This document shows positions 3,108 through 24,774 of a stretch of 25,260 nt of DNA, in pieces. The stretch comes from a virus. The position numbers and the translations under genes were made by a program. The DNA is taken from IMG/VR virus record IMGVR_UViG_3300023296_001674; one strand, 5' to 3'. How positions within the stretch are numbered: the first letter of the stretch is position 1; each line of letters begins with the position of its first letter. The notes under the pieces are model-generated. The model saw only the letters and a program-made list of their open reading frames with translations. It was not told the origin of the DNA and did no database searches.

Positions 3108-3394
3108 TTGAGCAAACGAGATCGAATACAGTGTTAACGCGGAACGAGACTGCTAGGAACACTTAAAATATACCTAATATGGGCGCGTTGTGGATGGATT
3201 TCCTTTTGTGGAATGATAAAAGCAATGGTAGGAAGCAAAGCGACCTACTAGGGAAAGCGTTATATGCTTTCCTGATAAGTTATTTTGTATGGAAGTGCCA
3301 TTAAAGCAGAACAATTGGTTTGGCGACCAAGCACCTTCGGGGCATAAAATCTGCTACTACTATACTATTTTAATCATAACTAAGTGTCACAAAA

Positions 3395-3464
3395 TATTGT
3401 ATGGTGTAGTGGTAACACGCTGCCTTTATCGGCGGAGCCGTGGGTTCGAGTCCTACTATGATAT
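3395..3464 (+). tRNA. tRNA-like gene: 7/7 acceptor stem (two G-U), D-arm gtgt/acac, GGTTCGAGTCC T-arm, but only a 6-nt anticodon loop and no encoded CCA
   Basis: Manual cloverleaf; acceptor tattgta pairs with tatgata. Confidence 0.35.
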
Positions 3465-3822
3465 TTGGATTACGTTCAGTGTGCACACCGAACGCCACAA
3501 ATTATCTGTTATTATCGCGATAGTGATAGATAATGTTGGGTCACTTAGTTATGATTAAAGTTTTTAGGGTGTTCGTCTAGTGGATTAGGACGCGCCGCCT
3601 TGGGTAGTTGGAGTTCGATTCTCCTTAGCAACGGTTACGTAAATCCGCACGGTGAGACATTGGTTCGAATCCAATACATGTTAAAATAACGATTTCACAT
3701 GAGATGTATAGTTTTAATGGATAAATCAGGCATGAGCCTTGTGCGGCAAGATAGTGGGTTCGATTCCCCTTGCGTTGAATGTGAAATGATGCTATATTGG
3801 TTTTTTAATATAGGAGATAATA

Positions 3823-8286: not shown

Positions 8287-8362
8287 TTCAGATGACCAAG
8301 CAAGTGAACGGGACCGCCTGTTAAGCGGATATTGCAGGGAGCGTTACCCTGATCTGGAGCCA
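8287..8362 (+). tRNA. tRNA-Asn, anticodon GUU, non-canonical T-loop agcgtta
   Basis: Acceptor ttcagat/atctgga, loop ctgttaa, T-stem caggg/ccctg. Confidence 0.7.
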
Positions 8363-8991
8363 ATAACTTTATATTTTTTGTCCCATTCATTTATTCGATG
8401 GTATAAATCATATAATGATAAACTTGAATGACGATTTTTAGATGAATTTTCTGGCTGTGGCATTATCTTGCAGTTCGCTGGATGTGATATATGATTTGGG
8501 TCTATTTTGTTTACAAATCCATCATGTACACTATACATGTGATCTCTTGTTAATCCGTTTTTATTTTTGGTACTATGATACATGCCCTGTTGATGTATCA
8601 TTATAAAATCAAATTCTTCTGGAAATGTTTGAAATGAAAATATAAATTTACATTGTTCTTTATATTTTATCTTCTCAATCATGTATTCTTGTGGTGTCAC
8701 CCTCATGGCATTTGTGCAAGTAACTGCACAACTTCTTCCGCAATAATATTCACGAGTTCCGGTTATAGGGCTAAATTTATTATTACATGTTGGATTTTTA
8801 CACTCGATTAGTCGTTTTTGATATTTTGTTAAATTTTTTACCGATATTTCTTTTTTGGTGAATATGCAACTACATGTAATATGTGATATTTTACCGTTGC
8901 TTTTGCCATGCATACGTGAATGACCATTCAATGCCATTAAGGATTTAAATTGATTATCGCATATATTACATGTATAAATATCTTTAGACAT
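8344..8991 (-). CDS. HNH-family homing endonuclease paralog (216 aa from the MSKDIYTCNIC start)
   Basis: The ORF track extends further, but GGAGG SD precedes the ATG at 8991; same conserved C-terminal core. Confidence 0.7.
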   Translation of the reverse strand: MSKDIYTCNICDNQFKSLMALNGHSRMHGKSNGKISHITCSCIFTKKEISVKNLTKYQKRLIECKNPTCNNKFSPITGTREYYCGRSCAVTCTNAMRVTPQEYMIEKIKYKEQCKFIFSFQTFPEEFDFIMIHQQGMYHSTKNKNGLTRDHMYSVHDGFVNKIDPNHISHPANCKIMPQPENSSKNRHSSLSLYDLYHRINEWDKKYKVIGSRSG

Positions 8992-9080
8992 TATCAACCT
9001 CCATTGGTTGTTATAGTTTAGAAGATATGGGGAATTCCAGTTCTCTATATCTTCGTTAGTATTTATCAATAACATATTAT

Positions 9081-9166
9081 TCGGATATAGGAGAATTGGT
9101 AGACCCAGAAGATTGTTAATCTTCCGCAGCAATGCATTCCAGGTTCGAGTCCTGGTATCCGAGCCA
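9081..9166 (+). tRNA. type-II-like tRNA (86 nt, Leu-like D-arm GAATTGGTAGA, variable-arm hairpin) whose anticodon loop reads GUU
   Basis: Acceptor tcggata/tatccga perfect, anticodon stem gaaga/tcttc, loop ttgttaa, T-arm ccaggTTCGAGTcctgg. Confidence 0.65.
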
Positions 9167-9167
9167 A

Positions 9168-9240
9168 TAACACCGTAGCGTAGAAAATAGTTACTTCGTT
9201 TCACTCACGACTGGAATGGGTTCGATTCCCATGCCCTGCG
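9168..9240 (+). tRNA. tRNA-like gene with D, anticodon and T arms but no matching 5' acceptor strand; no CCA
   Basis: T-arm atgggTTCGATTcccat; its 3' strand gccctgc pairs only with the downstream fragment at 9244. Confidence 0.35.
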
Positions 9241-11228: not shown

Positions 11229-11498
11229 ATGGATAATAGTACATTAATAGCGTTAGGAAGTTTGTTGTTTGCCATGATTGGTGGATTTTGGGGTGTCATA
11301 ACATACATCCTTGGAATCATCAAGGTGGAAAACGTTGAACGTCGTGGTGTCCAAGAAAAATTATATATGCGCGATGATGTAGCCAAAGATGTAATGAACG
11401 AAAGTTTAACAGAAGTAAAAAGTACCATCCGTGATACGAATGATAGACTCATACGTGTAGAAACAATATTATATGAAAGAACTGATAGAACAAAATAA
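11229..11498 (+). CDS. small membrane protein (89 aa), one N-terminal TM helix
   Basis: Hydrophobic segment LIALGSLLFAMIGGFWGVITYILGII. Confidence 0.45.
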   Translation: MDNSTLIALGSLLFAMIGGFWGVITYILGIIKVENVERRGVQEKLYMRDDVAKDVMNESLTEVKSTIRDTNDRLIRVETILYERTDRTK

Positions 11499-12108
11499 AA
11501 TATGGTTTTTAAGCAAAACGGTAATACGTTGTATAAATAGTTATATGGTTGATTTAAGAAAGAGTTTGCAAACACCAAAAGTTTGCTGTATTGAATGTAA
11601 AACAATATTTAGAACTAATCATTTTGTTAGACACTCGAAGAAGCGATGTATTGAGTGGAAAAAGAAAAACGGCATGATCCCAAAAGGGAAGCGTGGCGGT
11701 TGGAATAAAGGATTAACGAAAATGACTAGTTCGTTGGTCAAAAAAGGAACCGATACTTATCGTCGCCGTTATGAAAATGGTGAATATACACGACGCACAC
11801 AAACCGATGATATAAAGAAACAATATTGGCAAGATTGTAAATTTAAATTCAATGTTTATAATTATCCTGAAATATTTGACTTAAATTTACTCGATAAATT
11901 TGGGTGGTATCATCCTGTAGAAAATCCAAGTGGCGTAAGTAGAGATCATATTATTTCTGTATCATATGGATGGAAAAATGGTATAGATTCGAATATTATT
12001 AATCATATAGCCAATTGTAAATTGATGATTCATTTAGAAAATAACAAAAAAAATAATCGATCTGATTTATTATTAGAAGAATTATTACAAAAAATACACT
12101 CTATGTAG
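11473..12108 (+). CDS. HNH-family homing endonuclease paralog (211 aa)
   Basis: SGVSRDHIISVSYGWKNGIDSNIINHIANCKLM core; N-terminal CxxC pairs. Confidence 0.7.
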   Translation: MKELIEQNKIWFLSKTVIRCINSYMVDLRKSLQTPKVCCIECKTIFRTNHFVRHSKKRCIEWKKKNGMIPKGKRGGWNKGLTKMTSSLVKKGTDTYRRRYENGEYTRRTQTDDIKKQYWQDCKFKFNVYNYPEIFDLNLLDKFGWYHPVENPSGVSRDHIISVSYGWKNGIDSNIINHIANCKLMIHLENNKKNNRSDLLLEELLQKIHSM

Positions 12109-13765: not shown

Positions 13766-13843
13766 TGACTAGTAGCTCAGTGGTTTAGAGCGGGGAGTTC
13801 TAAACTCTCGACAGCGTTGGTTCAAATCCAACCTGGTCAACCA
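13766..13843 (+). tRNA. tRNA with anticodon CUA (amber-suppressor-like); U1-A72 acceptor
   Basis: D-arm GCTCAGTGGTTTAGAGC, anticodon stem gggag/ctctc, loop ttctaaa, T-arm gttggTTCAAATccaac, CCA encoded. Confidence 0.6.
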
Positions 13844-14022: not shown

Positions 14023-14041
14023 ATATTTGATAAATAGTTAT

Positions 14042-14818
14042 ATGAAATGTAAACAATGTAAAATATCATTTACCCCTATCCCACAAGCAAAAAAAGGTAT
14101 ATTTTGTTCGCACGATTGTCATAATGTATACCAGCGCGTAAATACTCGTGAGCAATACTTAAAAAATCCCAAACGGTGTATTTTTTGTGATGATATAATA
14201 TCATATAGAGAAAATATAAAAGTGGCGAAGTTTTGCAATAGGTCTTGCGGGGCAAAATATAATAATAAAAGACGTACAGAATGCGGATACACCCCAAGTC
14301 ATAAAAAATGGTCTAGTGGTAAAATATCTGCTAAAATGTCATCAAAAATGCGCCGTGCGGATATCAAATCAAGTGTCGTGTTTGGTGATTTTACTATAAT
14401 AACATTTGCTATATGCAATATTACGAATAAACCATATGTTCTACAAACACCGCATGGTGGTATAAAGCAAATATCACCATATATTAAATCATCTAAACAG
14501 ATATATTATGAGCAAGCCAAATTTCGATTTAATGTATATGACTATCCAGATATATTTGATATAACACTTTTAGAAAAATATGGATGGTATACATGTCCCG
14601 GCAAGAAACGAAAAAATCAAAAAAAGAATATAAATGGTGTAAGTAGAGATCATATAATATCTATCAATGATGGATTTAAGAATGGGTATGATCCATATAT
14701 TTTAGCACATCCTGCTAATTGTCGATTGATTAAACAAGTGGATAATGTTAAAAAATTAGATAAATCTAATATGTCATATGACGAGTTATTGATTAACATA
14801 AAACAATGGAATGGATAG
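14042..14818 (+). CDS. HNH-family homing endonuclease paralog (MKCKQCK start; the ORF track's TTG at 14027 overlaps the tRNA), TAG stop
   Basis: CNRSCGAKYNNKRR motif and NGVSRDHIISINDGFKNGYDPYILAHPANCRL core. Confidence 0.7.
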   Translation: MKCKQCKISFTPIPQAKKGIFCSHDCHNVYQRVNTREQYLKNPKRCIFCDDIISYRENIKVAKFCNRSCGAKYNNKRRTECGYTPSHKKWSSGKISAKMSSKMRRADIKSSVVFGDFTIITFAICNITNKPYVLQTPHGGIKQISPYIKSSKQIYYEQAKFRFNVYDYPDIFDITLLEKYGWYTCPGKKRKNQKKNINGVSRDHIISINDGFKNGYDPYILAHPANCRLIKQVDNVKKLDKSNMSYDELLINIKQWNG

Positions 14819-14825
14819 ACTATTC

Positions 14826-14900
14826 GCCCCTATAGTACAATGGTTAATATGATCGCCCGGTAAGCGATAGATGAAAGTTCGATTCTTTCTAGAGGCACCA
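14826..14900 (+). tRNA. tRNA-Thr, anticodon GGU
   Basis: Anticodon stem atcgc/gcgat perfect, loop ccggtaa, T-arm gaaagTTCGATTctttc. Confidence 0.8.
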
Positions 14901-14912
14901 ATAAATAACAAT

Positions 14913-15728
14913 ATGACAATGACACCACCAAATATTATAATTTATAGTAATCCACGTTCAGGAACCACATTGCTTCATCATACATTATTATTATTTTTTC
15001 AAGAATATTATGGTGATTATTATTGTGATTTACATGAATTCTTTACAACATCGCATATGACAACGAGACATCGTAATAATATAGATGAAATAAATTCCAT
15101 TACGTATGAACAGAATAACAATATATTAATAAAGACATACAAGCCAGCAGATACCGAAAGCAATGACTTCGAAGAAGAATTGCAACAACGAATTTCACAA
15201 TGGAACAATTGTGTAATAGCTGATAACAATCAGCCGTTTATAACAAAAATATTTCACAAAAATTTGATTGATCACAATTTTTCAAATACAATATTTGATC
15301 ATTCATTAAATTTGGTTCTTGTAAGAAAAAACGTACAAGATATGATATTGAGTTTTATAATATCAAATAGCAACAATAACTGGTTTTATTATGAAAATGA
15401 AAATATAGAAACATTGCGCGGAAGTTTGATTGGTGATATAGATATAATACGCATTCATTTGGAACGCAATAAATTATTTCTTGAAAATATACCCAATATA
15501 CCCAATGCATTAATCATTGATTATGATGAACTTAATGACTATGAATATTTTTATCAAGTTATTATAGATATGGGCATTGTTGATATTCGTGAATTGCATG
15601 CCATGGAAATATTTGATAACATACAGCTAAAACGTAAAATTATTCCAACACCATATACAATGGATCGTATAGATTATTTTAAGAATGCCAATGAAATAAA
15701 AACACTCATGGATGAATATTGTTCTTGA
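14913..15728 (+). CDS. sulfotransferase-like protein (PRSGTT PAPS-binding-like motif near the N-terminus), 272 aa from the ATG at 14913
   Basis: NPRSGTTLLH resembles the sulfotransferase 5'-PSB loop; the ORF track start at 14871 overlaps a tRNA. Confidence 0.45.
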   Translation: MTMTPPNIIIYSNPRSGTTLLHHTLLLFFQEYYGDYYCDLHEFFTTSHMTTRHRNNIDEINSITYEQNNNILIKTYKPADTESNDFEEELQQRISQWNNCVIADNNQPFITKIFHKNLIDHNFSNTIFDHSLNLVLVRKNVQDMILSFIISNSNNNWFYYENENIETLRGSLIGDIDIIRIHLERNKLFLENIPNIPNALIIDYDELNDYEYFYQVIIDMGIVDIRELHAMEIFDNIQLKRKIIPTPYTMDRIDYFKNANEIKTLMDEYCS

Positions 15729-15778: not shown

Positions 15779-16024
15779 ATGGATGATTATGATAAAATGT
15801 TTGATAATATGATAGAAGGATTCAAATCTGGTAGATTTAATGCTAAGGATTGGAATTTTTGTATTGATATAAATCTTGCTAATAAAAAAGATGTTTATGA
15901 TGGTTATATCATGGGAACTGGTGCTGAACAATGCGCTGGTTGTAAATCGTTTTCGACAAGGGAAGAACTTGTTGATTTGTTTACCAAAGTAGGCGCAAGG
16001 TTTATAATGAATGGAGTTGGTTGA
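15779..16024 (+). CDS. hypothetical protein (81 aa)
   Basis: SD tggaga upstream of ATG. Confidence 0.55.
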   Translation: MDDYDKMFDNMIEGFKSGRFNAKDWNFCIDINLANKKDVYDGYIMGTGAEQCAGCKSFSTREELVDLFTKVGARFIMNGVG

Positions 16025-16329
16025 TGGCACCTCATAGAGTACGACAATTGCATCGACCACGAAAAAAACCATATGGATTTGAAATATATGAAGATTCAAC
16101 ACCACTTAGTCTTGCCAATATTAGAAAGTGGTGCAAAAGTGTTATTGGTAATCTCGGCGAGCCACGCGGATGGTCATTAAAAGATGATACCATTTATATT
16201 AGAGGTCAAAAACGTGGTGGAAAACCCATGATTTATTTTATGGAAGAAAAACACGCTTTAGCATTTAAAAAAATGATAAACACAACAAATGTTGATGATA
16301 TACTTCTTTTTAAATTTATGTATTATTAA
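16021..16329 (+). CDS. hypothetical protein (102 aa), tandem paralog A
   Basis: Shares R.RQ..RPR..PY.F.IY.D...W...IYFM......AFK with the next ORF; ATGA overlap. Confidence 0.55.
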   Translation: MMAPHRVRQLHRPRKKPYGFEIYEDSTPLSLANIRKWCKSVIGNLGEPRGWSLKDDTIYIRGQKRGGKPMIYFMEEKHALAFKKMINTTNVDDILLFKFMYY

Positions 16330-16586
16330 TGGCAAACCGAATAAGACAAATGGTTCGCCCTAGAATAATGCCGTATGCGTTTAAAATTTATAGTGATTTT
16401 ATGGATCGACGTAATGTACATAAAGATCACAACAAACAAATGGCAATATATGGATGGGTTAAAGACACGTTTGGTGAATCTAACTATGATGTATGGACTT
16501 CGCGGCGTGAACCCACACGATATGCAACAATGATATATTTTATGGATGATACATCCGCCATGGCATTTAAGCTGCAATGGATGTAA
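16329..16586 (+). CDS. hypothetical protein (85 aa), tandem paralog B
   Basis: Paralog of 16021-16329; TAATG overlap. Confidence 0.55.
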   Translation: MANRIRQMVRPRIMPYAFKIYSDFMDRRNVHKDHNKQMAIYGWVKDTFGESNYDVWTSRREPTRYATMIYFMDDTSAMAFKLQWM

Positions 16587-16799
16587 ATAAAGCGTGATGA
16601 TCGGGTATCTAGTTCGATTTTTATCGGGATACCAAAATTTTTAACCCAAATAATAGGAGTTCGACATGAAAACGGGATAACTTAGCGGCGGTTTGCCGCA
16701 CACATGGATTACAGCTAAAATCAAGAAATTTAAACTTTAATTAAGGAGATACACAATGAGTAATGAAAACTCAAGGGTATCGCAGAAAGTTTAGACAGT

Positions 16800-17129
16800 A
16801 TGGATAAAGCTGCGCTAAAAACACTTTCCGATACTCTTAATCGGATATGGGGAATCCCTGAACCAAGGGTCTATTATCCGAATAAACATTTCGAAAAACC
16901 TGAACCAGTTGAACAGACAATGTTCTCAGTGTTCATTCTTGACGCTGGTCCTAAACGGATTAACGTCATTAAAGAAATCAGATCAATCTTAGGATTGACC
17001 CTGAAAGAATCAAAGGATTTTGTTGATAATATAGACAAGAGCCTTGTTCAAGAAGACTTAGAAAAATGGGATGCAGATGCATTAGCCGAAACATTATCAA
17101 ATGTTGGAGCAACTGTTGAAGTTTCTTAA
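16800..17129 (+). CDS. ribosomal protein bL12 (L7/L12) C-terminal-domain homolog fused to a novel N-terminal segment (109 aa)
   Basis: FSVFILDAGPKRINVIKEIRSILGLTLKESKDFVDN...DADALAETLSNVGATVEV matches the bL12 CTD pattern. Confidence 0.6.
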   Translation: MDKAALKTLSDTLNRIWGIPEPRVYYPNKHFEKPEPVEQTMFSVFILDAGPKRINVIKEIRSILGLTLKESKDFVDNIDKSLVQEDLEKWDADALAETLSNVGATVEVS

Positions 17130-17172: not shown

Positions 17173-17225
17173 TCCTCTTTCGTATAGTGGTTATGATCTT
17201 TGTGTCGCAATCAGAGGACGATTTT
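17173..17225 (+). pseudogene. tRNA 5' fragment (D-arm plus anticodon arm, no T-arm), diverged copy of the tRNA at 17331
   Basis: ttcgtatagtggttatgatctttgtgtcgcaatcagaggacg versus ttcgtatagtggtcattatctctgtgtcgtactcagaggacgg. Confidence 0.3.
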
Positions 17226-17241
17226 TTGTGGAGGCAATTAT

Positions 17242-17325
17242 GCGCGTAGCCGGTATGTTGGTACTACCACTGGTCTTCCAAACCAGCGCGAAAGCATTGG
17301 GGTTTGATTCCCCCTACCCGCTCCA
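17242..17325 (+). tRNA. tRNA, anticodon UCC (Gly-like), with an 11-nt extended variable region (84 nt)
   Basis: Acceptor gcgcgta/tacccgc 6/7, D-stem ggta/tacc, anticodon stem ctggt/accag, loop cttccaa, T-arm ggggTTTGATTcccc. Confidence 0.6.
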
Positions 17326-17330
17326 ATCAA

Positions 17331-17405
17331 GCCCCATTCGTATAGTGGTCATTATCTCTGTGTCGTACTCAGAGGACGGCAGTTCGATTCCGCCATGGGG
17401 CACCA
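17331..17405 (+). tRNA. tRNA, anticodon CGU-like (Thr); 9-nt loop alternative
   Basis: Acceptor gccccat/atggggc perfect, anticodon stem ctctg/cagag, T-loop TTCGATT, CCA encoded. Confidence 0.65.
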
Positions 17406-18079: not shown

Positions 18080-19063
18080 ATGGATAACAACAATTACAAC
18101 GATTTAAAACAGCGTTTGGTTAATGCAGGATGTTTCGAACGAGCGACATCGCATTATGTTCTACGTATTACAGCAATTCTAATTGCTTATGTGGGAGCAT
18201 ATTTTGTTCTGCTTACACAGCCACTAGGATTGGTTGCAGTGGGTGCATTGATTATTGCAGCCTTTGCCAGCGTTCAGGCTGGTTTCATTTCACACGATGC
18301 TGGTGATGGCGGTATTACATCAAATAAGATGCTATCTACCGGTATGCGACAATTCTTTTTATCGTTTGTTACTGGTGTGAGTAGTTCATATTTTCATGCA
18401 CTACATAAAGTGCATCACAAAACAATGTTTAAAGGATCATCGAAATCATCCGACACAGTTTCAGAAAATGAATACGAAGGCAAATGGTTGAAGAAATTAG
18501 TTTCACGTGATGGTTTGTTATTCATGGTAACGATGGTTACATTACGGGGATTCACATTCAAATTTGAAAGTGTAAAATATATGCTTAAACACGCCAATAA
18601 AACCGCCGCAGATCAACTGTTGGTGGGATTGCACGTTGTAGCATGGCTGATCGTTCCAATGATGATTATTGGACCAGTAGCCATTCTAAACTATGCATTA
18701 TTGACGTTGTTGATTGGACCTTATATCGGAACGGTATTGGTTATTAATCATGCCGGTATGGTAACAGCAAACCGACAAATGCATTTGCCTAAATTTGAAC
18801 GCGTAGTAAATACTACACGCAATCTTGGTGACGGCGTTTGGAACAATCTGTTCTTCGGTGGTGTAAACAACCATATTGAACACCATTTGTTTCCGGGTGT
18901 GCCAGTGCCAAATCTAGGTGAAGCTAGAAAGATTACTGAAGCCTTTTGTGAAGAACGTGGTATTAAATACACCAAAGCTTCATATTTCAGCGCATTAATC
19001 GAAGCCAAAGACCATTTCAAGGGTTTGTCTTCACAGAGATTAGTTGCTGAAGCACTCAACTAA
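18080..19063 (+). CDS. membrane fatty-acid-desaturase-family protein (desaturase / carotenoid-ketolase-like His boxes)
   Basis: HDAGD, HKVHH and HIEHHLFPGVP boxes with several TM segments; SD aggag. Confidence 0.65.
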   Translation: MDNNNYNDLKQRLVNAGCFERATSHYVLRITAILIAYVGAYFVLLTQPLGLVAVGALIIAAFASVQAGFISHDAGDGGITSNKMLSTGMRQFFLSFVTGVSSSYFHALHKVHHKTMFKGSSKSSDTVSENEYEGKWLKKLVSRDGLLFMVTMVTLRGFTFKFESVKYMLKHANKTAADQLLVGLHVVAWLIVPMMIIGPVAILNYALLTLLIGPYIGTVLVINHAGMVTANRQMHLPKFERVVNTTRNLGDGVWNNLFFGGVNNHIEHHLFPGVPVPNLGEARKITEAFCEERGIKYTKASYFSALIEAKDHFKGLSSQRLVAEALN

Positions 19064-19073
19064 GGGAAACTAT

Positions 19074-19550
19074 ATGTTTAAATTTAATGTATGTAATTAC
19101 AGTGATTCACTGTATTCAATGGACAACTATACCAAGGCTATTGGTATAGTTGATCCAGATGAAAAAGTAACACCATCAGAAAAATATCATGTTGCACGAT
19201 GCCACGATATAGTAATGCAGGAACACCCTTGGGTGGCTCCCACAATAGACCAGTTTGTCGCAATTATGAATTTTGCAGAAGATTTTACAGACGATGATGT
19301 TGTAATGATTCATTGCTCTGCTGGTATATCACGCAGCACTGCAACTGCCATATTGTTATTAATGTTGCATGGCGCTGACGAAGAAGAAGCATTTAATGCT
19401 GTTGAACAAAATAGACCAAACATGAATCCAAACACATTGATTCTTCGCTTTGCTGATGAATTATTAGGAATGGATGGCGGTTTGATTGAATATCATAAAC
19501 AATGGATGGCGAAACGGGTTATTAAACCAGTTAGTTTCGCAGGACAATAA
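19074..19550 (+). CDS. dual-specificity (Cys-based) protein phosphatase
   Basis: CX5R signature HCSAGISRS; SD aaggga before the ATG at 19074 (ORF track start 19044 is less likely). Confidence 0.7.
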   Translation: MFKFNVCNYSDSLYSMDNYTKAIGIVDPDEKVTPSEKYHVARCHDIVMQEHPWVAPTIDQFVAIMNFAEDFTDDDVVMIHCSAGISRSTATAILLLMLHGADEEEAFNAVEQNRPNMNPNTLILRFADELLGMDGGLIEYHKQWMAKRVIKPVSFAGQ

Positions 19551-23768: not shown

Positions 23769-24368
23769 GTGCGGAAGCATCTACATACACGAACACTGTT
23801 GACACACTACGGAGGTGTCTTCATCGATAATAATGTCGAAGAAGTTATAGTTCCGTCGTTATGGGAACAGCAGACATTTATTGATAAAGCAGGAAGTGAA
23901 ATTGTAAATCAGATGTGGGCATTTGAAGATAAGAAAAATCGCCCCGTATGTTTGATACCAGAAGTTACTGGTGTTATACAAGAAATGTGGCGCGATGATT
24001 GGAGTAAATCCAAACCAAAGCCATATTCTATTTTTTATGTGAATCGTTGTTATCGTTATGAACGACCACAGAAGGGTAGATATAGAGAATTCACACAAAT
24101 CGGATTAGAAATTCTTGGTGATACATCAGGGAATGATTACGATATGGCAATTAATTTATTGCAAAAGTGTCTCGATTGTTTTACTATAGATTATAAACTT
24201 ACAGAAACGGTACAACGCGGTTTGGCGTATTATGTTGATGATGGGTTTGAAGTCGAATGTGAGAAGTTGGGCGCACAGAAGCAAATTGCTGGTGGTGGTC
24301 GATACAATGAAGGTATTGGTTGGGCTATCGGCGTTGATAGATTAATATTGGGGATTGATGATGACTAG
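23769..24368 (+). CDS. minimal class II aaRS catalytic core of the HisRS/HisZ type (motif 1 region FEDKKNRPVCLIPEVT, motif 2 YRYERPQKGRYREFTQ, motif 3 GGGRYNEG), lacking the insertion and anticodon-binding domains
   Basis: Motif recall against E. coli HisS; an upstream ATG at 23741 with SD aaggag opens a different frame (MLRGTRL...), suggesting a frameshift at about 23790. Confidence 0.65.
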   Translation: MRKHLHTRTLLTHYGGVFIDNNVEEVIVPSLWEQQTFIDKAGSEIVNQMWAFEDKKNRPVCLIPEVTGVIQEMWRDDWSKSKPKPYSIFYVNRCYRYERPQKGRYREFTQIGLEILGDTSGNDYDMAINLLQKCLDCFTIDYKLTETVQRGLAYYVDDGFEVECEKLGAQKQIAGGGRYNEGIGWAIGVDRLILGIDDD

Positions 24369-24774
24369 TTTACACCTTATTACTTCACCGCGTGAATATG
24401 TGACAACTATGACACATAACTCGGATTATCTTCAGTCTTGCAAGACTAATAAACCATCATGGAAAAAAGCGGATCGTTCATTTCATACACTCGAAAATGG
24501 TGACAAATTATTTAATGTGTACTATGATAATGGTAAATTATGCGTGCAAAGATGGTATCAAAAAAGTGCTAAAATTGAATCTAATGATCTTCATCGATTG
24601 GATGGTCCAGCATATATATCTTATTATGAAAATGGCATGTATTATCGATCTTCGTGGTGGATCAATGGAAATTCTATTTCAGGCAAAGTGATGCGATCAT
24701 GGTTAAAAGAAAATAATATTTCTTCGCCATATTCAGATGAAGATCAAATGGCAATAATATTAAGGTGGGGATGA
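24355..24774 (+). CDS. hypothetical protein (139 aa) with an internally repeated LHR.DGPA...NG segment
   Basis: ATGATGA overlap with the HisRS-like stop. Confidence 0.5.
   Translation: MMMTSLHLITSPREYVTTMTHNSDYLQSCKTNKPSWKKADRSFHTLENGDKLFNVYYDNGKLCVQRWYQKSAKIESNDLHRLDGPAYISYYENGMYYRSSWWINGNSISGKVMRSWLKENNISSPYSDEDQMAIILRWG

What the first reader, a model, noticed from the sequence alone, without database searches (positions are those of the whole stretch)
16800..17129. Phage-encoded ribosomal protein bL12 C-terminal-domain homolog with a non-ribosomal N-terminus
Residues about 40-109 match the L7/L12 CTD pattern (F.V.L..AG..KI.VIK.VR...GLGLKEAKD.V......L.E.....DAEAL...L...GA.VEV). This domain recruits EF-Tu, EF-G and IF2. 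The N-terminal 40 residues are unrelated to the bL12 dimerisation/L10-binding domain. Within a tRNA/HisRS-like/translation-themed island this suggests manipulation of the host ribosomal stalk. The gene is preceded by a strong-SD 12-codon uORF ending in TAG.
Basis: partly seen in the sequence, partly recalled or inferred. Interest (0 to 1): 0.7.

Follow-up and report, generated by a model that had tools for sequence, protein, structure and literature searches.

The report
Frameshifted full-length bL12 gene in huge phage
A very large phage carries its own copy of the bacterial ribosomal stalk protein bL12, a kind of gene already reported in phages, but this copy is a complete gene cut near its start by one missing base, not a new fusion protein.

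Summary
The ORF at 16800-17129 is real and its residues 42-108 are an unambiguous bL12 C-terminal domain (Pfam PF00542, E=6.6e-19). A model made with an alignment superposes on 1ctf at 1.1 Å.

The claim of a non-ribosomal N-terminus is wrong. Residues 1-22 are the second helix of the bL12 N-terminal domain. The first helix is encoded by the 11 codons directly upstream in the same frame (KLKGIAESLDS).

The "uORF" (ATG 16756, with the joint strongest Shine-Dalgarno match in the window) is the gene's original start. It is cut off from the rest by a one-base frame break in an A4 run (16766-16769). Adding one A gives a 124-aa protein that aligns end to end with full-length bL12 proteins.

A separate assembly has the same A4 run. 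Intact full-length bL12 genes occur in other huge-phage contigs, one of them inside a tRNA array.

Phage bL12 genes are already published (Mizuno 2019, Al-Shayeb 2020). So this is a new, probably recently disabled or N-terminally truncated, member of a known kind. Programmed -1 frameshifting or a soluble truncated product cannot be excluded, but neither has support. Interest is modest.

The parts
16693..16721 (+). sigma-70-like promoter match (TTGCCG, 17 nt, TAAAAT) upstream of the gene
   Evidence: This is a consensus match only (9 of 12 positions). The number of such sites in the region does not exceed what shuffled sequence gives.
16742..16748 (+). Shine-Dalgarno sequence TAAGGAG, 7 nt before ATG 16756. 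It is the original ribosome-binding site of the bL12-like gene.
   Evidence: It is the joint strongest SD match among 30 + strand starts in the window. ATG 16800 has no SD match.
16756..16794 (+). 12-codon leader ORF (MSNENSRVSQKV, TAG stop). Its first four codons (MSNE) are the original start of the gene. The rest is out-of-frame read-on after the frame break.
   Evidence: MS.EK/MSADK/MPSER N-termini occur in full-length relatives. The out-of-frame peptide NSRVSQKV scores -5.8 against bL12 columns, against +7.0 for the frame-0 peptide.
16766..16769 (+). A4 run where the reading frame breaks. One more A (GAA AAA CTC), or a -1 shift, joins ATG 16756 to the 16800 frame.
   Evidence: One search gives the 124-aa reconstruction. 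One search shows the identical A4 run in an independent Logan assembly of SRR7528202. Frame 0 is closed just upstream by TAA 16761-16763 and TGA 16764-16766.
16767..16799 (+). 11 codons in the frame of the main ORF (KLKGIAESLDS) that encode helix alpha1 of the bL12 N-terminal domain. The current ATG-started ORF does not reach them.
   Evidence: In an anchored profile test the peptide scores z=4.4, the best of 27,267 stop-free 11-mers in the window's six frames. phmmer alignments to 119-128-aa bL12 proteins start at query residues 1-9. hhalign against 35 independent bacterial bL12 sequences aligns query 5-36 to template 3-34 without gaps, P=3.5e-4. The AF2 model has a helix at residues 2-11.
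16800..17129 (+). The 109-aa ORF as called. It covers bL12 from the alpha1/alpha2 loop to the C-terminus, stop codon included.
   Evidence: P0001, identical protein on contigs up to 570,750 bp.
16806..16850 (+). Helix alpha2 of the bL12 N-terminal domain (KAALKTLSDTLNRIW, followed by the conserved G).
   Evidence: AF2 helix 14-28 in 120-aa numbering, pLDDT 72-80. The anchored profile test for residues 16-37 of the 124-aa reconstruction gives z=5.8, the best of 16,201. See also the alignments.
16851..16922 (+). Hinge, unusual in composition (GIPEPRVYYPNKHFEKPEPVEQTM, against the Ala/Val-rich hinge of cellular bL12).
   Evidence: The AF2 model has no regular structure and pLDDT of about 42 here. 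Similar non-Ala hinges occur in P0085 and P0047.
16923..17123 (+). bL12 C-terminal (translation-factor-binding) domain, beta-alpha-alpha-beta-alpha-beta.
   Evidence: Pfam PF00542, E=6.6e-19. Foldseek matches 1ctf at rmsd 1.1 Å over 68 residues, TM 0.91. Residues matching E. coli V66-V68, K70, L80 and E82 are I, N, V, K, L and E (residue list from PMC5887453).
16773..16838 (+). Predicted RNA structure: a 10-bp outer stem (16773-16782 with 16829-16838) that encloses the leader's TAG and places ATG 16800 in an apical loop.
   Evidence: MFE -26.7 kcal/mol, z=-1.9, and 7 of 200 shuffles fold as well. This is weak evidence and the significance is unknown.

Best explanation
This is a phage copy of the complete bacterial stalk-protein gene rplL (bL12). 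It has N-terminal helices alpha1 and alpha2 (dimerisation and uL10 binding), a hinge, and the C-terminal factor-binding domain. It sits in the tRNA island of a roughly 570-kb phage.

In this genome one base is missing from an A-run in codon 5 (ancestral GAA AAA CTC, now GAA AAC TC). The original SD and ATG (16742-16758) therefore open a dead-end 12-codon ORF. The rest of the gene survives as a 109-codon ORF that starts at an internal Met in the alpha1/alpha2 loop.

Intact relatives in other huge phages presumably work as proposed for phage bL12. They would exchange into the host uL10-(bL12)n stalk through the N-terminal domain and present a phage-encoded C-terminal domain to EF-Tu, EF-G and IF2. 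This step is inferred, not shown.

The allele here cannot make alpha1 by standard decoding. If any protein is made, it is most likely by termination-reinitiation, because ATG 16800 lies 5 nt after the leader's TAG. That product would keep an intact factor-binding domain but only half of the anchoring domain. The most likely status is a recently disabled, or at best crippled, phage rplL gene, not a purpose-built chimera.
For: CTD identity.

N-terminal homology and the frame break:
- The reconstructed 124-aa protein aligns 1-124 with the 126-aa P0047 (40% identity, E 2e-26) and 3-123 with the 121-aa P0085 (41% identity).
- NCBIfam TIGR00855 aligns 1-123 to model positions 1-124 of 125.
- The anchored profile tests give z=4.4 and z=5.8, each the best in the window.
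- hhalign of the N-terminal 41 aa against 35 independent bacterial bL12 gives P=3.5e-4 and is gapless from K5. A control carrying the out-of-frame leader peptide aligns over only 14 columns.

Translation signals: the SD sits at ATG 16756, and there is none at ATG 16800.

The break is real in the DNA: a separate Logan assembly has the identical sequence. All 5 contigs on record carry exactly the 109-aa product, and no 124-aa version exists in the 5.8-billion-cluster collection.

Intact full-length bL12 genes in other phage contigs:
- L003, L004 (467-kb UViG, between two tRNA-Met genes in a 15-tRNA array) and L005 (533-kb UViG).
- P0075 and P0066 lie in phage-like neighbourhoods.

A second incomplete translation gene in the same window (a HisRS N-terminal fragment) fits a picture of gene decay in this island.
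Against: - Only one lineage is available and no reads, so recent inactivation cannot be told apart from a break that translation bypasses.
- The good preservation of the SD, the ATG, MSNE and the 11 upstream codons is what recent inactivation predicts. It is equally what continued translation through the break would predict.
- The N-terminal domain is too diverged to hit Pfam PF16320, and the N-terminal fragment alone finds no bL12 in the PDB by phmmer.
- The whole protein scores 58-61 bits against TIGR00855, below its 84.4-bit cut-off.
- Whether an alpha1-less bL12 retains any stalk binding was not tested here.
Confidence: 0.6

Rival explanations
1. The 109-aa alpha1-less protein is the functional product. 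It is made by reinitiation after the 12-codon leader. It acts as an unanchored or weakly anchored bL12 C-terminal domain that titrates or stimulates translational GTPases, or that forms defective heterodimers with host bL12.
For: The CTD is intact and keeps the residues equivalent to E. coli V66-V68, K70, L80 and E82. The leader's TAG lies 5 nt before ATG 16800, and a predicted structure places the ATG in a loop. Short phage proteins that consist mostly of a bL12 domain are known (PMC6375957).
Against: ATG 16800 has no SD of its own. The arrangement is fully explained by a 1-nt deletion in a full-length gene. Relatives in other phages are intact and full length. The RNA structure is only marginally better than shuffled sequence (z=-1.9). 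No conservation data exist.
Confidence: 0.2
2. A programmed -1 ribosomal frameshift at GAA AAC (16765-16770) restores the full-length 124-aa bL12, with the downstream stem as a stimulator.
For: The upstream frame-0 codons, the SD, the ATG and the MSNE start are all well preserved. A 10-bp stem starts 2 nt after the A-run.
Against: There is no X XXY YYZ heptamer. In U GAA AAC, the P-site tRNA-Glu cannot re-pair in the -1 frame (sequence). The 2-nt spacer is shorter than the 5-9 nt usual for -1 stimulators (general knowledge). The fold has a z-score of only -1.9. None of the intact relatives has a frame break at this position.
Confidence: 0.07
3. The frame break is a sequencing or assembly artefact, and the real phage has an intact 124-aa rplL homolog.
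For: The break lies in a homopolymer and one extra A repairs it perfectly. The two assemblies may share the same read set.
Against: The A4 run is identical in the window and in a Logan assembly of SRR7528202. Five contigs on record carry the same 109-aa call, the contig is recorded in 2 samples, and no 124-aa form is on record. A 4-base homopolymer is not error-prone in short-read consensus (general knowledge).
Confidence: 0.06
4. One reading: a bL12 C-terminal domain fused to an unrelated, non-ribosomal N-terminus, with an independent regulatory uORF.
For: Pfam detects only PF00542. The hinge composition is atypical.
Against: Searches show collinear, gapless homology of the N-terminus to bL12 helices alpha1 and alpha2. 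That homology includes the codons upstream of the ATG.
Confidence: 0.03

Closest known systems
Cellular ribosomal protein bL12 (RplL, L7/L12; Pfam PF16320 + PF00542, NCBIfam TIGR00855)
   Same: It has the same three-part layout, alpha1-alpha2 N-terminal domain, hinge and beta-alpha-alpha-beta-alpha-beta CTD, and the same length once the frame is repaired (124 aa). The factor-contact residues are conserved. The CTD model is 1.1 Å from 1ctf.
   Different: It is only about 35-50% identical to any bacterial bL12. It scores below the TIGR00855 cut-off and does not hit PF16320. The hinge is Pro/Tyr/Lys-rich. G79 of the GLGLKEAK motif is Thr. It is not in an rplJ-rplL-rpoB operon. The gene is broken at codon 5.
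Phage-encoded bL12-domain proteins of Mizuno et al. 2019 (PMC6375957), e.g. Ralstonia phage RSB3 (98 aa), Dinoroseobacter phage DFL12phi1 (106 aa), Salmonella phage FSL SP-076 (418 aa)
   Same: It is a PF00542 domain in a phage genome with factor-contact residues conserved, and the hypothesis of action at the stalk is the same.
   Different: Those proteins come from phages under 80 kb. They are mostly the bL12 domain alone or embedded in larger unrelated proteins. The present gene derives from a full-length rplL that includes the N-terminal domain. No detectable close relationship was found (tblastn of GenBank phages).
rpL7/L12 genes of huge phages (Al-Shayeb et al. 2020, PMC7162821) and the IMG/VR contigs found here (L003, L004 467 kb, L005 533 kb)
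   Same: These are full-length bL12 genes in phage genomes over 200 kb that are rich in tRNAs and translation genes. In L004 the gene lies inside a tRNA array, as it does here.
   Different: Those copies are intact. Identity to the window's protein is only 31-42%. The window's copy has the frame break.
Programmed -1 frameshift genes (dnaX; phage tail chaperone G/GT)
   Same: Two overlapping frames must be joined by a -1 shift to give the full-length homolog, and a stem follows the site.
   Different: There is no canonical slippery heptamer, the spacer is too short, the site is at codon 4-5, and the break is not conserved in relatives.

Membership tests
bL12 (RplL, L7/L12) | C-terminal domain matches Pfam PF00542 above the gathering score | tested here: met
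   68.4 bits against a cut-off of 25.9, E=6.6e-19, profile positions 1-66 of 67
bL12 (RplL, L7/L12) | CTD adopts the beta-alpha-alpha-beta-alpha-beta fold of 1ctf | tested here: met
   The AF2 model made with a 121-sequence alignment has E53-59, H64-75, H79-87, E92-98, H100-112, E116-119. Foldseek matches 1ctf at rmsd 1.1 Å over 68 residues, TM 0.91. CTD pLDDT is only 51-72, and the model was guided by a bL12 alignment.
bL12 (RplL, L7/L12) | Conserved factor-contact residues (E. coli V66-V68, K70, L80, E82; PMC5887453) | tested here: met
   The phage has I, N, V, K, L and E at these positions. I65, I68, K69, R72 and L79 (120-aa numbering) fall in columns invariant across 121 sequences.
bL12 (RplL, L7/L12) | N-terminal two-helix dimerisation/uL10-binding domain (Pfam PF16320) | tested here: inconclusive
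   There is no PF16320 hit. Collinear homology is nevertheless significant in the anchored tests (z=4.4 and 5.8) and in hhalign (P=3.5e-4), and AF2 gives two helices. Helix alpha1 is encoded outside the ATG-started ORF.
bL12 (RplL, L7/L12) | Whole protein reaches the NCBIfam TIGR00855 equivalog cut-off | tested here: not met
   58.2 bits for the 109-aa ORF and 60.8 bits for the 124-aa reconstruction, against a cut-off of 84.4
bL12 (RplL, L7/L12) | Uninterrupted reading frame from SD/ATG to stop | tested here: not met
   A 1-nt frame break at 16766-16769, reproduced in a second assembly
bL12 (RplL, L7/L12) | Encoded next to rplJ (uL10) in the rplKAJL-rpoBC region | tested here: not met
   The neighbours are tRNAs, two paralogous small ORFs without family hits, thymidine kinase and a fatty-acid desaturase.
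bL12 (RplL, L7/L12) | Binds uL10 helix alpha8 as a dimer and is found on 50S/70S particles | not testable with these tools
   This needs co-sedimentation or pull-down experiments.
Phage-encoded bL12-domain proteins (Mizuno 2019; Al-Shayeb 2020) | PF00542 domain encoded in a bona fide phage genome | tested here: met
   PHROG hits in the window (phrog_2141 E=6.8e-97, phrog_23051, phrog_592), 27 tRNAs and a 570,750-bp contig
Programmed -1 ribosomal frameshift site | Slippery heptamer X XXY YYZ in the upstream frame | tested here: not met
   The overlap window 16767-16791 contains none. The best candidate is U GAA AAC.
Programmed -1 ribosomal frameshift site | Stable stimulatory structure 5-9 nt downstream | tested here: inconclusive
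   A 10-bp stem starts 2 nt downstream. The fold's z-score is -1.9, and 7 of 200 shuffles fold as well.
Programmed -1 ribosomal frameshift site | Frame break conserved among homologs | tested here: not met
   All full-length relatives examined are uninterrupted. No close relative exists for a stricter test.

The most novel reading that the evidence does not exclude
The split is exploited, not merely decay. The strongly initiated 12-codon leader controls how much alpha1-less bL12 is made, or allows a low rate of -1 shifting to full-length bL12. Its TAG stop can be read by the amber-suppressor tRNA(CUA) encoded 3 kb upstream, and that stop lies 5 nt before ATG 16800 inside a predicted stem. The phage would then make an unanchored factor-binding domain, or a tunable mix of anchored and unanchored forms, to interfere with host stalk function.
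Probability: 0.1. Interest if true: 0.6.

Novelty: new member of a known kind. Interest (0 to 1): 0.3.

Why it matters
Phage-encoded ribosomal proteins bear on how far viruses reach into the core of translation, and bL12 is one of the two commonest such proteins.

This case adds a diverged, full-length-derived bL12 from a phage of about 570 kb. It shows that these genes sit in tRNA arrays in more than one huge-phage lineage. It also gives a caution for annotation: a "CTD-only phage bL12 with a novel N-terminus" can be a frameshifted full-length gene. Domain-architecture claims about viral ribosomal proteins should therefore check the upstream frames.

If the truncated form proved functional, it would be a natural experiment on what a stalk protein's factor-binding domain does when it is not anchored.

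Tried and rejected
- Megablast of 3 kb around the gene against GenBank phages gave no match. tblastn of the protein there gave only bacterial-type bL12 genes in mislabelled or host-contaminated records and the 735-kb megaphage at 33% identity. There is no close relative in that collection.
- The word-indexed protein search with the 124-aa reconstruction found only the protein itself and one distant hit. The metagenome and GTDB genome scans found nothing above about 51% identity. No allele comparison, dN/dS estimate or donor inference was therefore possible.
- The N-terminal fragments alone gave only chance hits against PDB sequences, and Pfam PF16320 did not match. Sequence-to-sequence methods lack the power for this, so anchored and profile tests were needed.
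- Single-sequence AlphaFold gave an unusable model, pLDDT 46.
The frame-0 translation of window DNA was used instead.
- Read-through of the leader's TAG does not join the main frame. It ends at TAA 16816-16818.
- Alternative genetic codes do not rescue the frame, because TAA 16761-16763 stays a stop in codes 4 and 25.
- Non-ATG starts in frame 0 (ATC 16779) lie too far from the SD.
- I tested whether the ORF after the HisRS fragment is its missing C-terminal half displaced by another frameshift. It has no similarity to any solved structure.
- A search for the SRA run in the literature found nothing.

Full report
**Observation.** The + strand ORF at 16800-17129 (109 aa, ATG to TAA) exists as described.
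- Residues 42-108 match Pfam Ribosomal_L12 (PF00542) across essentially the whole model, positions 1-66 of 67, at 68.4 bits (gathering score 25.9) and E=6.6e-19.
- Every significant match among PDB sequences is a bL12, with E down to 6e-12.
- The 12-codon ORF in front of it is also real. It reads MSNENSRVSQKV from ATG 16756 to TAG 16792-16794.
- Its Shine-Dalgarno sequence, TAAGGAG at 16742-16748 with 7-nt spacing, is the joint strongest among 30 + strand starts surveyed. ATG 16800 has none.

**Setting.** The window is a tRNA island of a phage.
- ARAGORN finds 27 tRNA genes.
- Phage protein families are present (phrog_2141 E=6.8e-97, phrog_23051, thymidine kinase phrog_592), and so is a HisRS-like fragment.
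- The identical 109-aa protein is on record on five contigs, the longest 570,750 bp.
- Nothing similar at the DNA level exists among 50,697 GenBank phage records.

**What the N-terminus is.** The evidence says otherwise.
- The phmmer alignments to D. radiodurans and T. thermophilus bL12 already start at query residues 5-6 and run into the N-terminal domain (LKTLSDTLNRIWGI against LADLIDGLKETWGV).
- Reading upstream of ATG 16800 in the same frame gives 11 open codons, KLKGIAESLDS, closed by TGA 16764 and TAA 16761.
- I searched 1.84 billion representative proteins with this 120-aa frame-0 translation. Bona fide-length bL12 proteins (119-128 aa) aligned from query residues 1-9 to their own residues 3-12. 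That is inside the codons that lie upstream of the ATG.
- Inserting one A into the A4 run 16766-16769, which has the same effect as a -1 shift, joins ATG 16756 to this frame. The result is a 124-aa protein, MSNEKLKGIAESLDSMDKAALKTLSDTLNRIWGIPEP....
- That protein aligns 1-124 with the 126-aa P0047 (40% identity, E 2e-26, one 2-residue gap) and 3-123 with the 121-aa P0085 (MSEKVEQLADSISKMDKQAAGMLGEALMRALGI...; 41% identity).
- NCBIfam TIGR00855 aligns it 1-123 to model positions 1-124 of 125.

**Significance of the N-terminal match.** I scored the peptides in the fixed register set by the downstream alignment, against the columns of 20 full-length bL12 sequences.
- The upstream 11-mer has z=4.4 and is the best of all 27,267 stop-free 11-mers in the window's six frames.
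- Residues 16-37 have z=5.8 and are the best of 16,201.
- The out-of-frame leader peptide scores -5.8, where the frame-0 peptide scores +7.0.
- hhalign of the 41 N-terminal residues against 35 bacterial bL12 sequences, an alignment that excludes the window, gives a gapless alignment of query 5-36 to template 3-34 with P=3.5e-4. A control carrying the leader peptide aligns over only 14 columns, P=0.009.
- There are limits. Pfam PF16320 does not match. The N-terminal fragments alone find no bL12 by phmmer against the PDB. The domain is diverged, and it is recognisable only with profiles or an anchored register.

**Structure.**
- A single-sequence model was useless, pLDDT 46.
- With a 121-sequence alignment, AlphaFold2 gives helices 2-11 and 14-28 (pLDDT 72-80), an unstructured hinge at 29-52, and a beta-alpha-alpha-beta-alpha-beta domain.
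- Foldseek places the CTD on 1ctf at 1.1 Å over 68 residues (TM 0.91), and the whole chain on the E. coli L7 NMR structure 1rqu.
- The model was guided by a bL12 alignment, so it supports the N-terminal helices but does not prove them.
- ATG 16800 falls exactly in the alpha1/alpha2 loop, so the called ORF lacks alpha1 entirely.
- The residues reported to contact EF-G (E. coli V66-V68, K70, L80, E82; PMC5887453) are I, N, V, K, L and E here. Five CTD positions of the phage protein fall in columns invariant across 121 sequences. G79 of the GLGLKEAK motif is Thr.

**Is the frame break real?**
- An independent Logan assembly of run SRR7528202 (74-kb contig, L002) is identical over 301 bases around the site, including the A4 run.
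- The contig is recorded in two samples. All five contigs carry the 109-aa product, and no 124-aa form exists in the collection.
- A four-base homopolymer is not a typical short-read consensus error. I therefore treat the break as a property of the DNA, with a residual 5-6% chance of artefact.

**Is the break bypassed by frameshifting?**
- The two frames overlap only at 16767-16791. That stretch holds no X XXY YYZ heptamer, and the best candidate is U GAA AAC.
- A 10-bp stem (16773-16782 with 16829-16838) begins only 2 nt after it. The fold is only marginally better than shuffled sequence (z=-1.9, 7 of 200).
- None of the relatives has a break at this position.
- Programmed -1 frameshifting is therefore possible but unsupported.
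- Read-through of the leader's TAG, for example by the tRNA(CUA) at 13766-13843, stays in the wrong frame and stops at 16816-16818.

**Relatives and context elsewhere.**
- A profile scan of IMG/VR found intact full-length bL12 genes on three viral contigs: L003 (46 kb, 128 aa, 42% identity), L004 (466,729 bp) and L005 (532,729 bp, 155 aa with an N-terminal extension).
- In L004 the gene lies between two tRNA-Met genes inside an array of 15 tRNAs in 10 kb, which matches the window's layout.
- Two of the diverged full-length proteins from the exhaustive search, P0075 and P0066, lie next to HNH endonucleases, vWA proteins, a tRNA-binding domain, an ART-PolyVal domain and Cpn60, not in an rplJ-rplL-rpoB operon.
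- No sequence closer than about 50% identity was found in metagenomes or in 185,579 species genomes. The donor and host therefore remain unknown.
- SD usage argues against a Bacteroidota host. This is inference only.

**Comparison with the literature.**
- Mizuno et al. 2019 (PMC6375957) listed bL12 as the second commonest virus-encoded ribosomal protein. They described the domain as standing alone or embedded in larger proteins in phages under 80 kb, and they detected a phage bL12 peptide in E. coli ribosome fractions. Affinity purification of ribosomes carrying the tagged protein failed.
- Al-Shayeb et al. 2020 (PMC7162821) listed rpL7/L12 among the translation genes of huge phages.
- The present gene belongs to that known kind. 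What is specific to it is its derivation from a full-length rplL, its unusual Pro/Tyr/Lys-rich hinge, and the frame break at codon 5.

**Mechanism.**
- Shown: homology of all three parts to bL12, the position of the translation signals, and the frame break.
- Inferred: intact phage bL12 proteins exchange into the host uL10 stalk through the N-terminal domain and present their own CTD to EF-Tu, EF-G and IF2.
- Also inferred: in this allele, ribosomes start at ATG 16756, stop at the TAG after 12 codons, and can at best reinitiate 5 nt later at ATG 16800. The product would have an intact CTD but half an anchoring domain. The bL12 N-terminal domain is what dimerises and binds uL10 (stated in PMC5887453), so loss of alpha1 should abolish or greatly weaken stalk binding.
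- My best estimate is a recently disabled or crippled gene (about 0.6).
- A truncated HisRS in the same window (199 aa, aligning to residues 36-152 of 421-aa enzymes) fits a picture of translation genes that are acquired and then decay.

**Verdict.** The bL12 homology is confirmed and the chimeric-N-terminus interpretation is rejected. This is a new member of a known kind, of modest interest. It offers a useful lesson for annotation, and a small chance that the split arrangement is functional.

Noticed in passing
window 13766-13843 (+): ARAGORN labels this tRNA 'Pyl'. It has anticodon CUA, so it is an amber-suppressor-type tRNA. TAG still ends 6 of 35 plausible + strand ORFs (TAA 23, TGA 6), including the 12-codon leader of the bL12 gene. 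I did not test whether TAG is recoded elsewhere in this phage.
   Followed up: partly
window 17241-17325 (+): A tRNA-like sequence that ARAGORN missed. Rfam gives a sub-threshold tRNA-Sec hit (38.4 bits against 47, E=1.1e-5). It folds as a cloverleaf with a 7-nt anticodon loop CUUCCAA (anticodon UCC), a small extra arm and a 3' UCCA.
   Followed up: partly
window 17175-17228 (+): A truncated copy of the 5' two-thirds of the neighbouring tRNA-Thr(CGU) gene (17331-17405). Its anticodon loop is altered and it has no T arm, so it is probably a tRNA pseudogene.
   Followed up: partly
window 23769-24368 (+): The HisRS-like ORF of 199 aa covers only the N-terminal part of the catalytic domain (it aligns to residues 36-152 of 421-aa HisRS). 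The following overlapping ORF, 24355-24774, is in another frame and has no detectable similarity to anything. It may be a second decayed translation gene.
   Followed up: partly
window 3394-3465 (+): ARAGORN reports a tRNA of undetermined identity with a two-base 'anticodon' (ta), so its anticodon loop is unusual.
   Followed up: no
window 16021-16329 and 16329-16586 (+): Two adjacent small ORFs (102 and 85 aa) look like tandem paralogs (shared ...RQ..RPR..PY.F.IY.D... and ...MIYFM.....A.AFK motifs). They have no Pfam or PHROG match.
   Followed up: no
window 11473-12108 and 14027-14818 (+): Two ORFs between tRNA genes both match phrog_23051 and, weakly, endonuclease VII / HNH families. They are probably homing-endonuclease-like genes scattered through the tRNA array.
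   Followed up: no
window 14871-15728, 18080-19063, 19044-19550 (+) and 8344-9204 (-): An unusual set of accessory genes for a phage: a sulfotransferase-like ORF, a fatty-acid desaturase (E=4.4e-30), a dual-specificity phosphatase, and a C2H2 zinc-finger ORF on the opposite strand.
   Followed up: no
window 16773-16838 (+): A predicted RNA structure encloses the leader's TAG in a stem and places ATG 16800 in an apical loop (z=-1.9). It may be a chance fold or a coupling element.
   Followed up: partly
proteins P0003-P0046: The top-scoring hits in the exhaustive search are long proteins (about 240-1,066 aa) carrying 3-7 tandem bL12 C-terminal-domain repeats. Their origin and function were not examined.
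   Followed up: no
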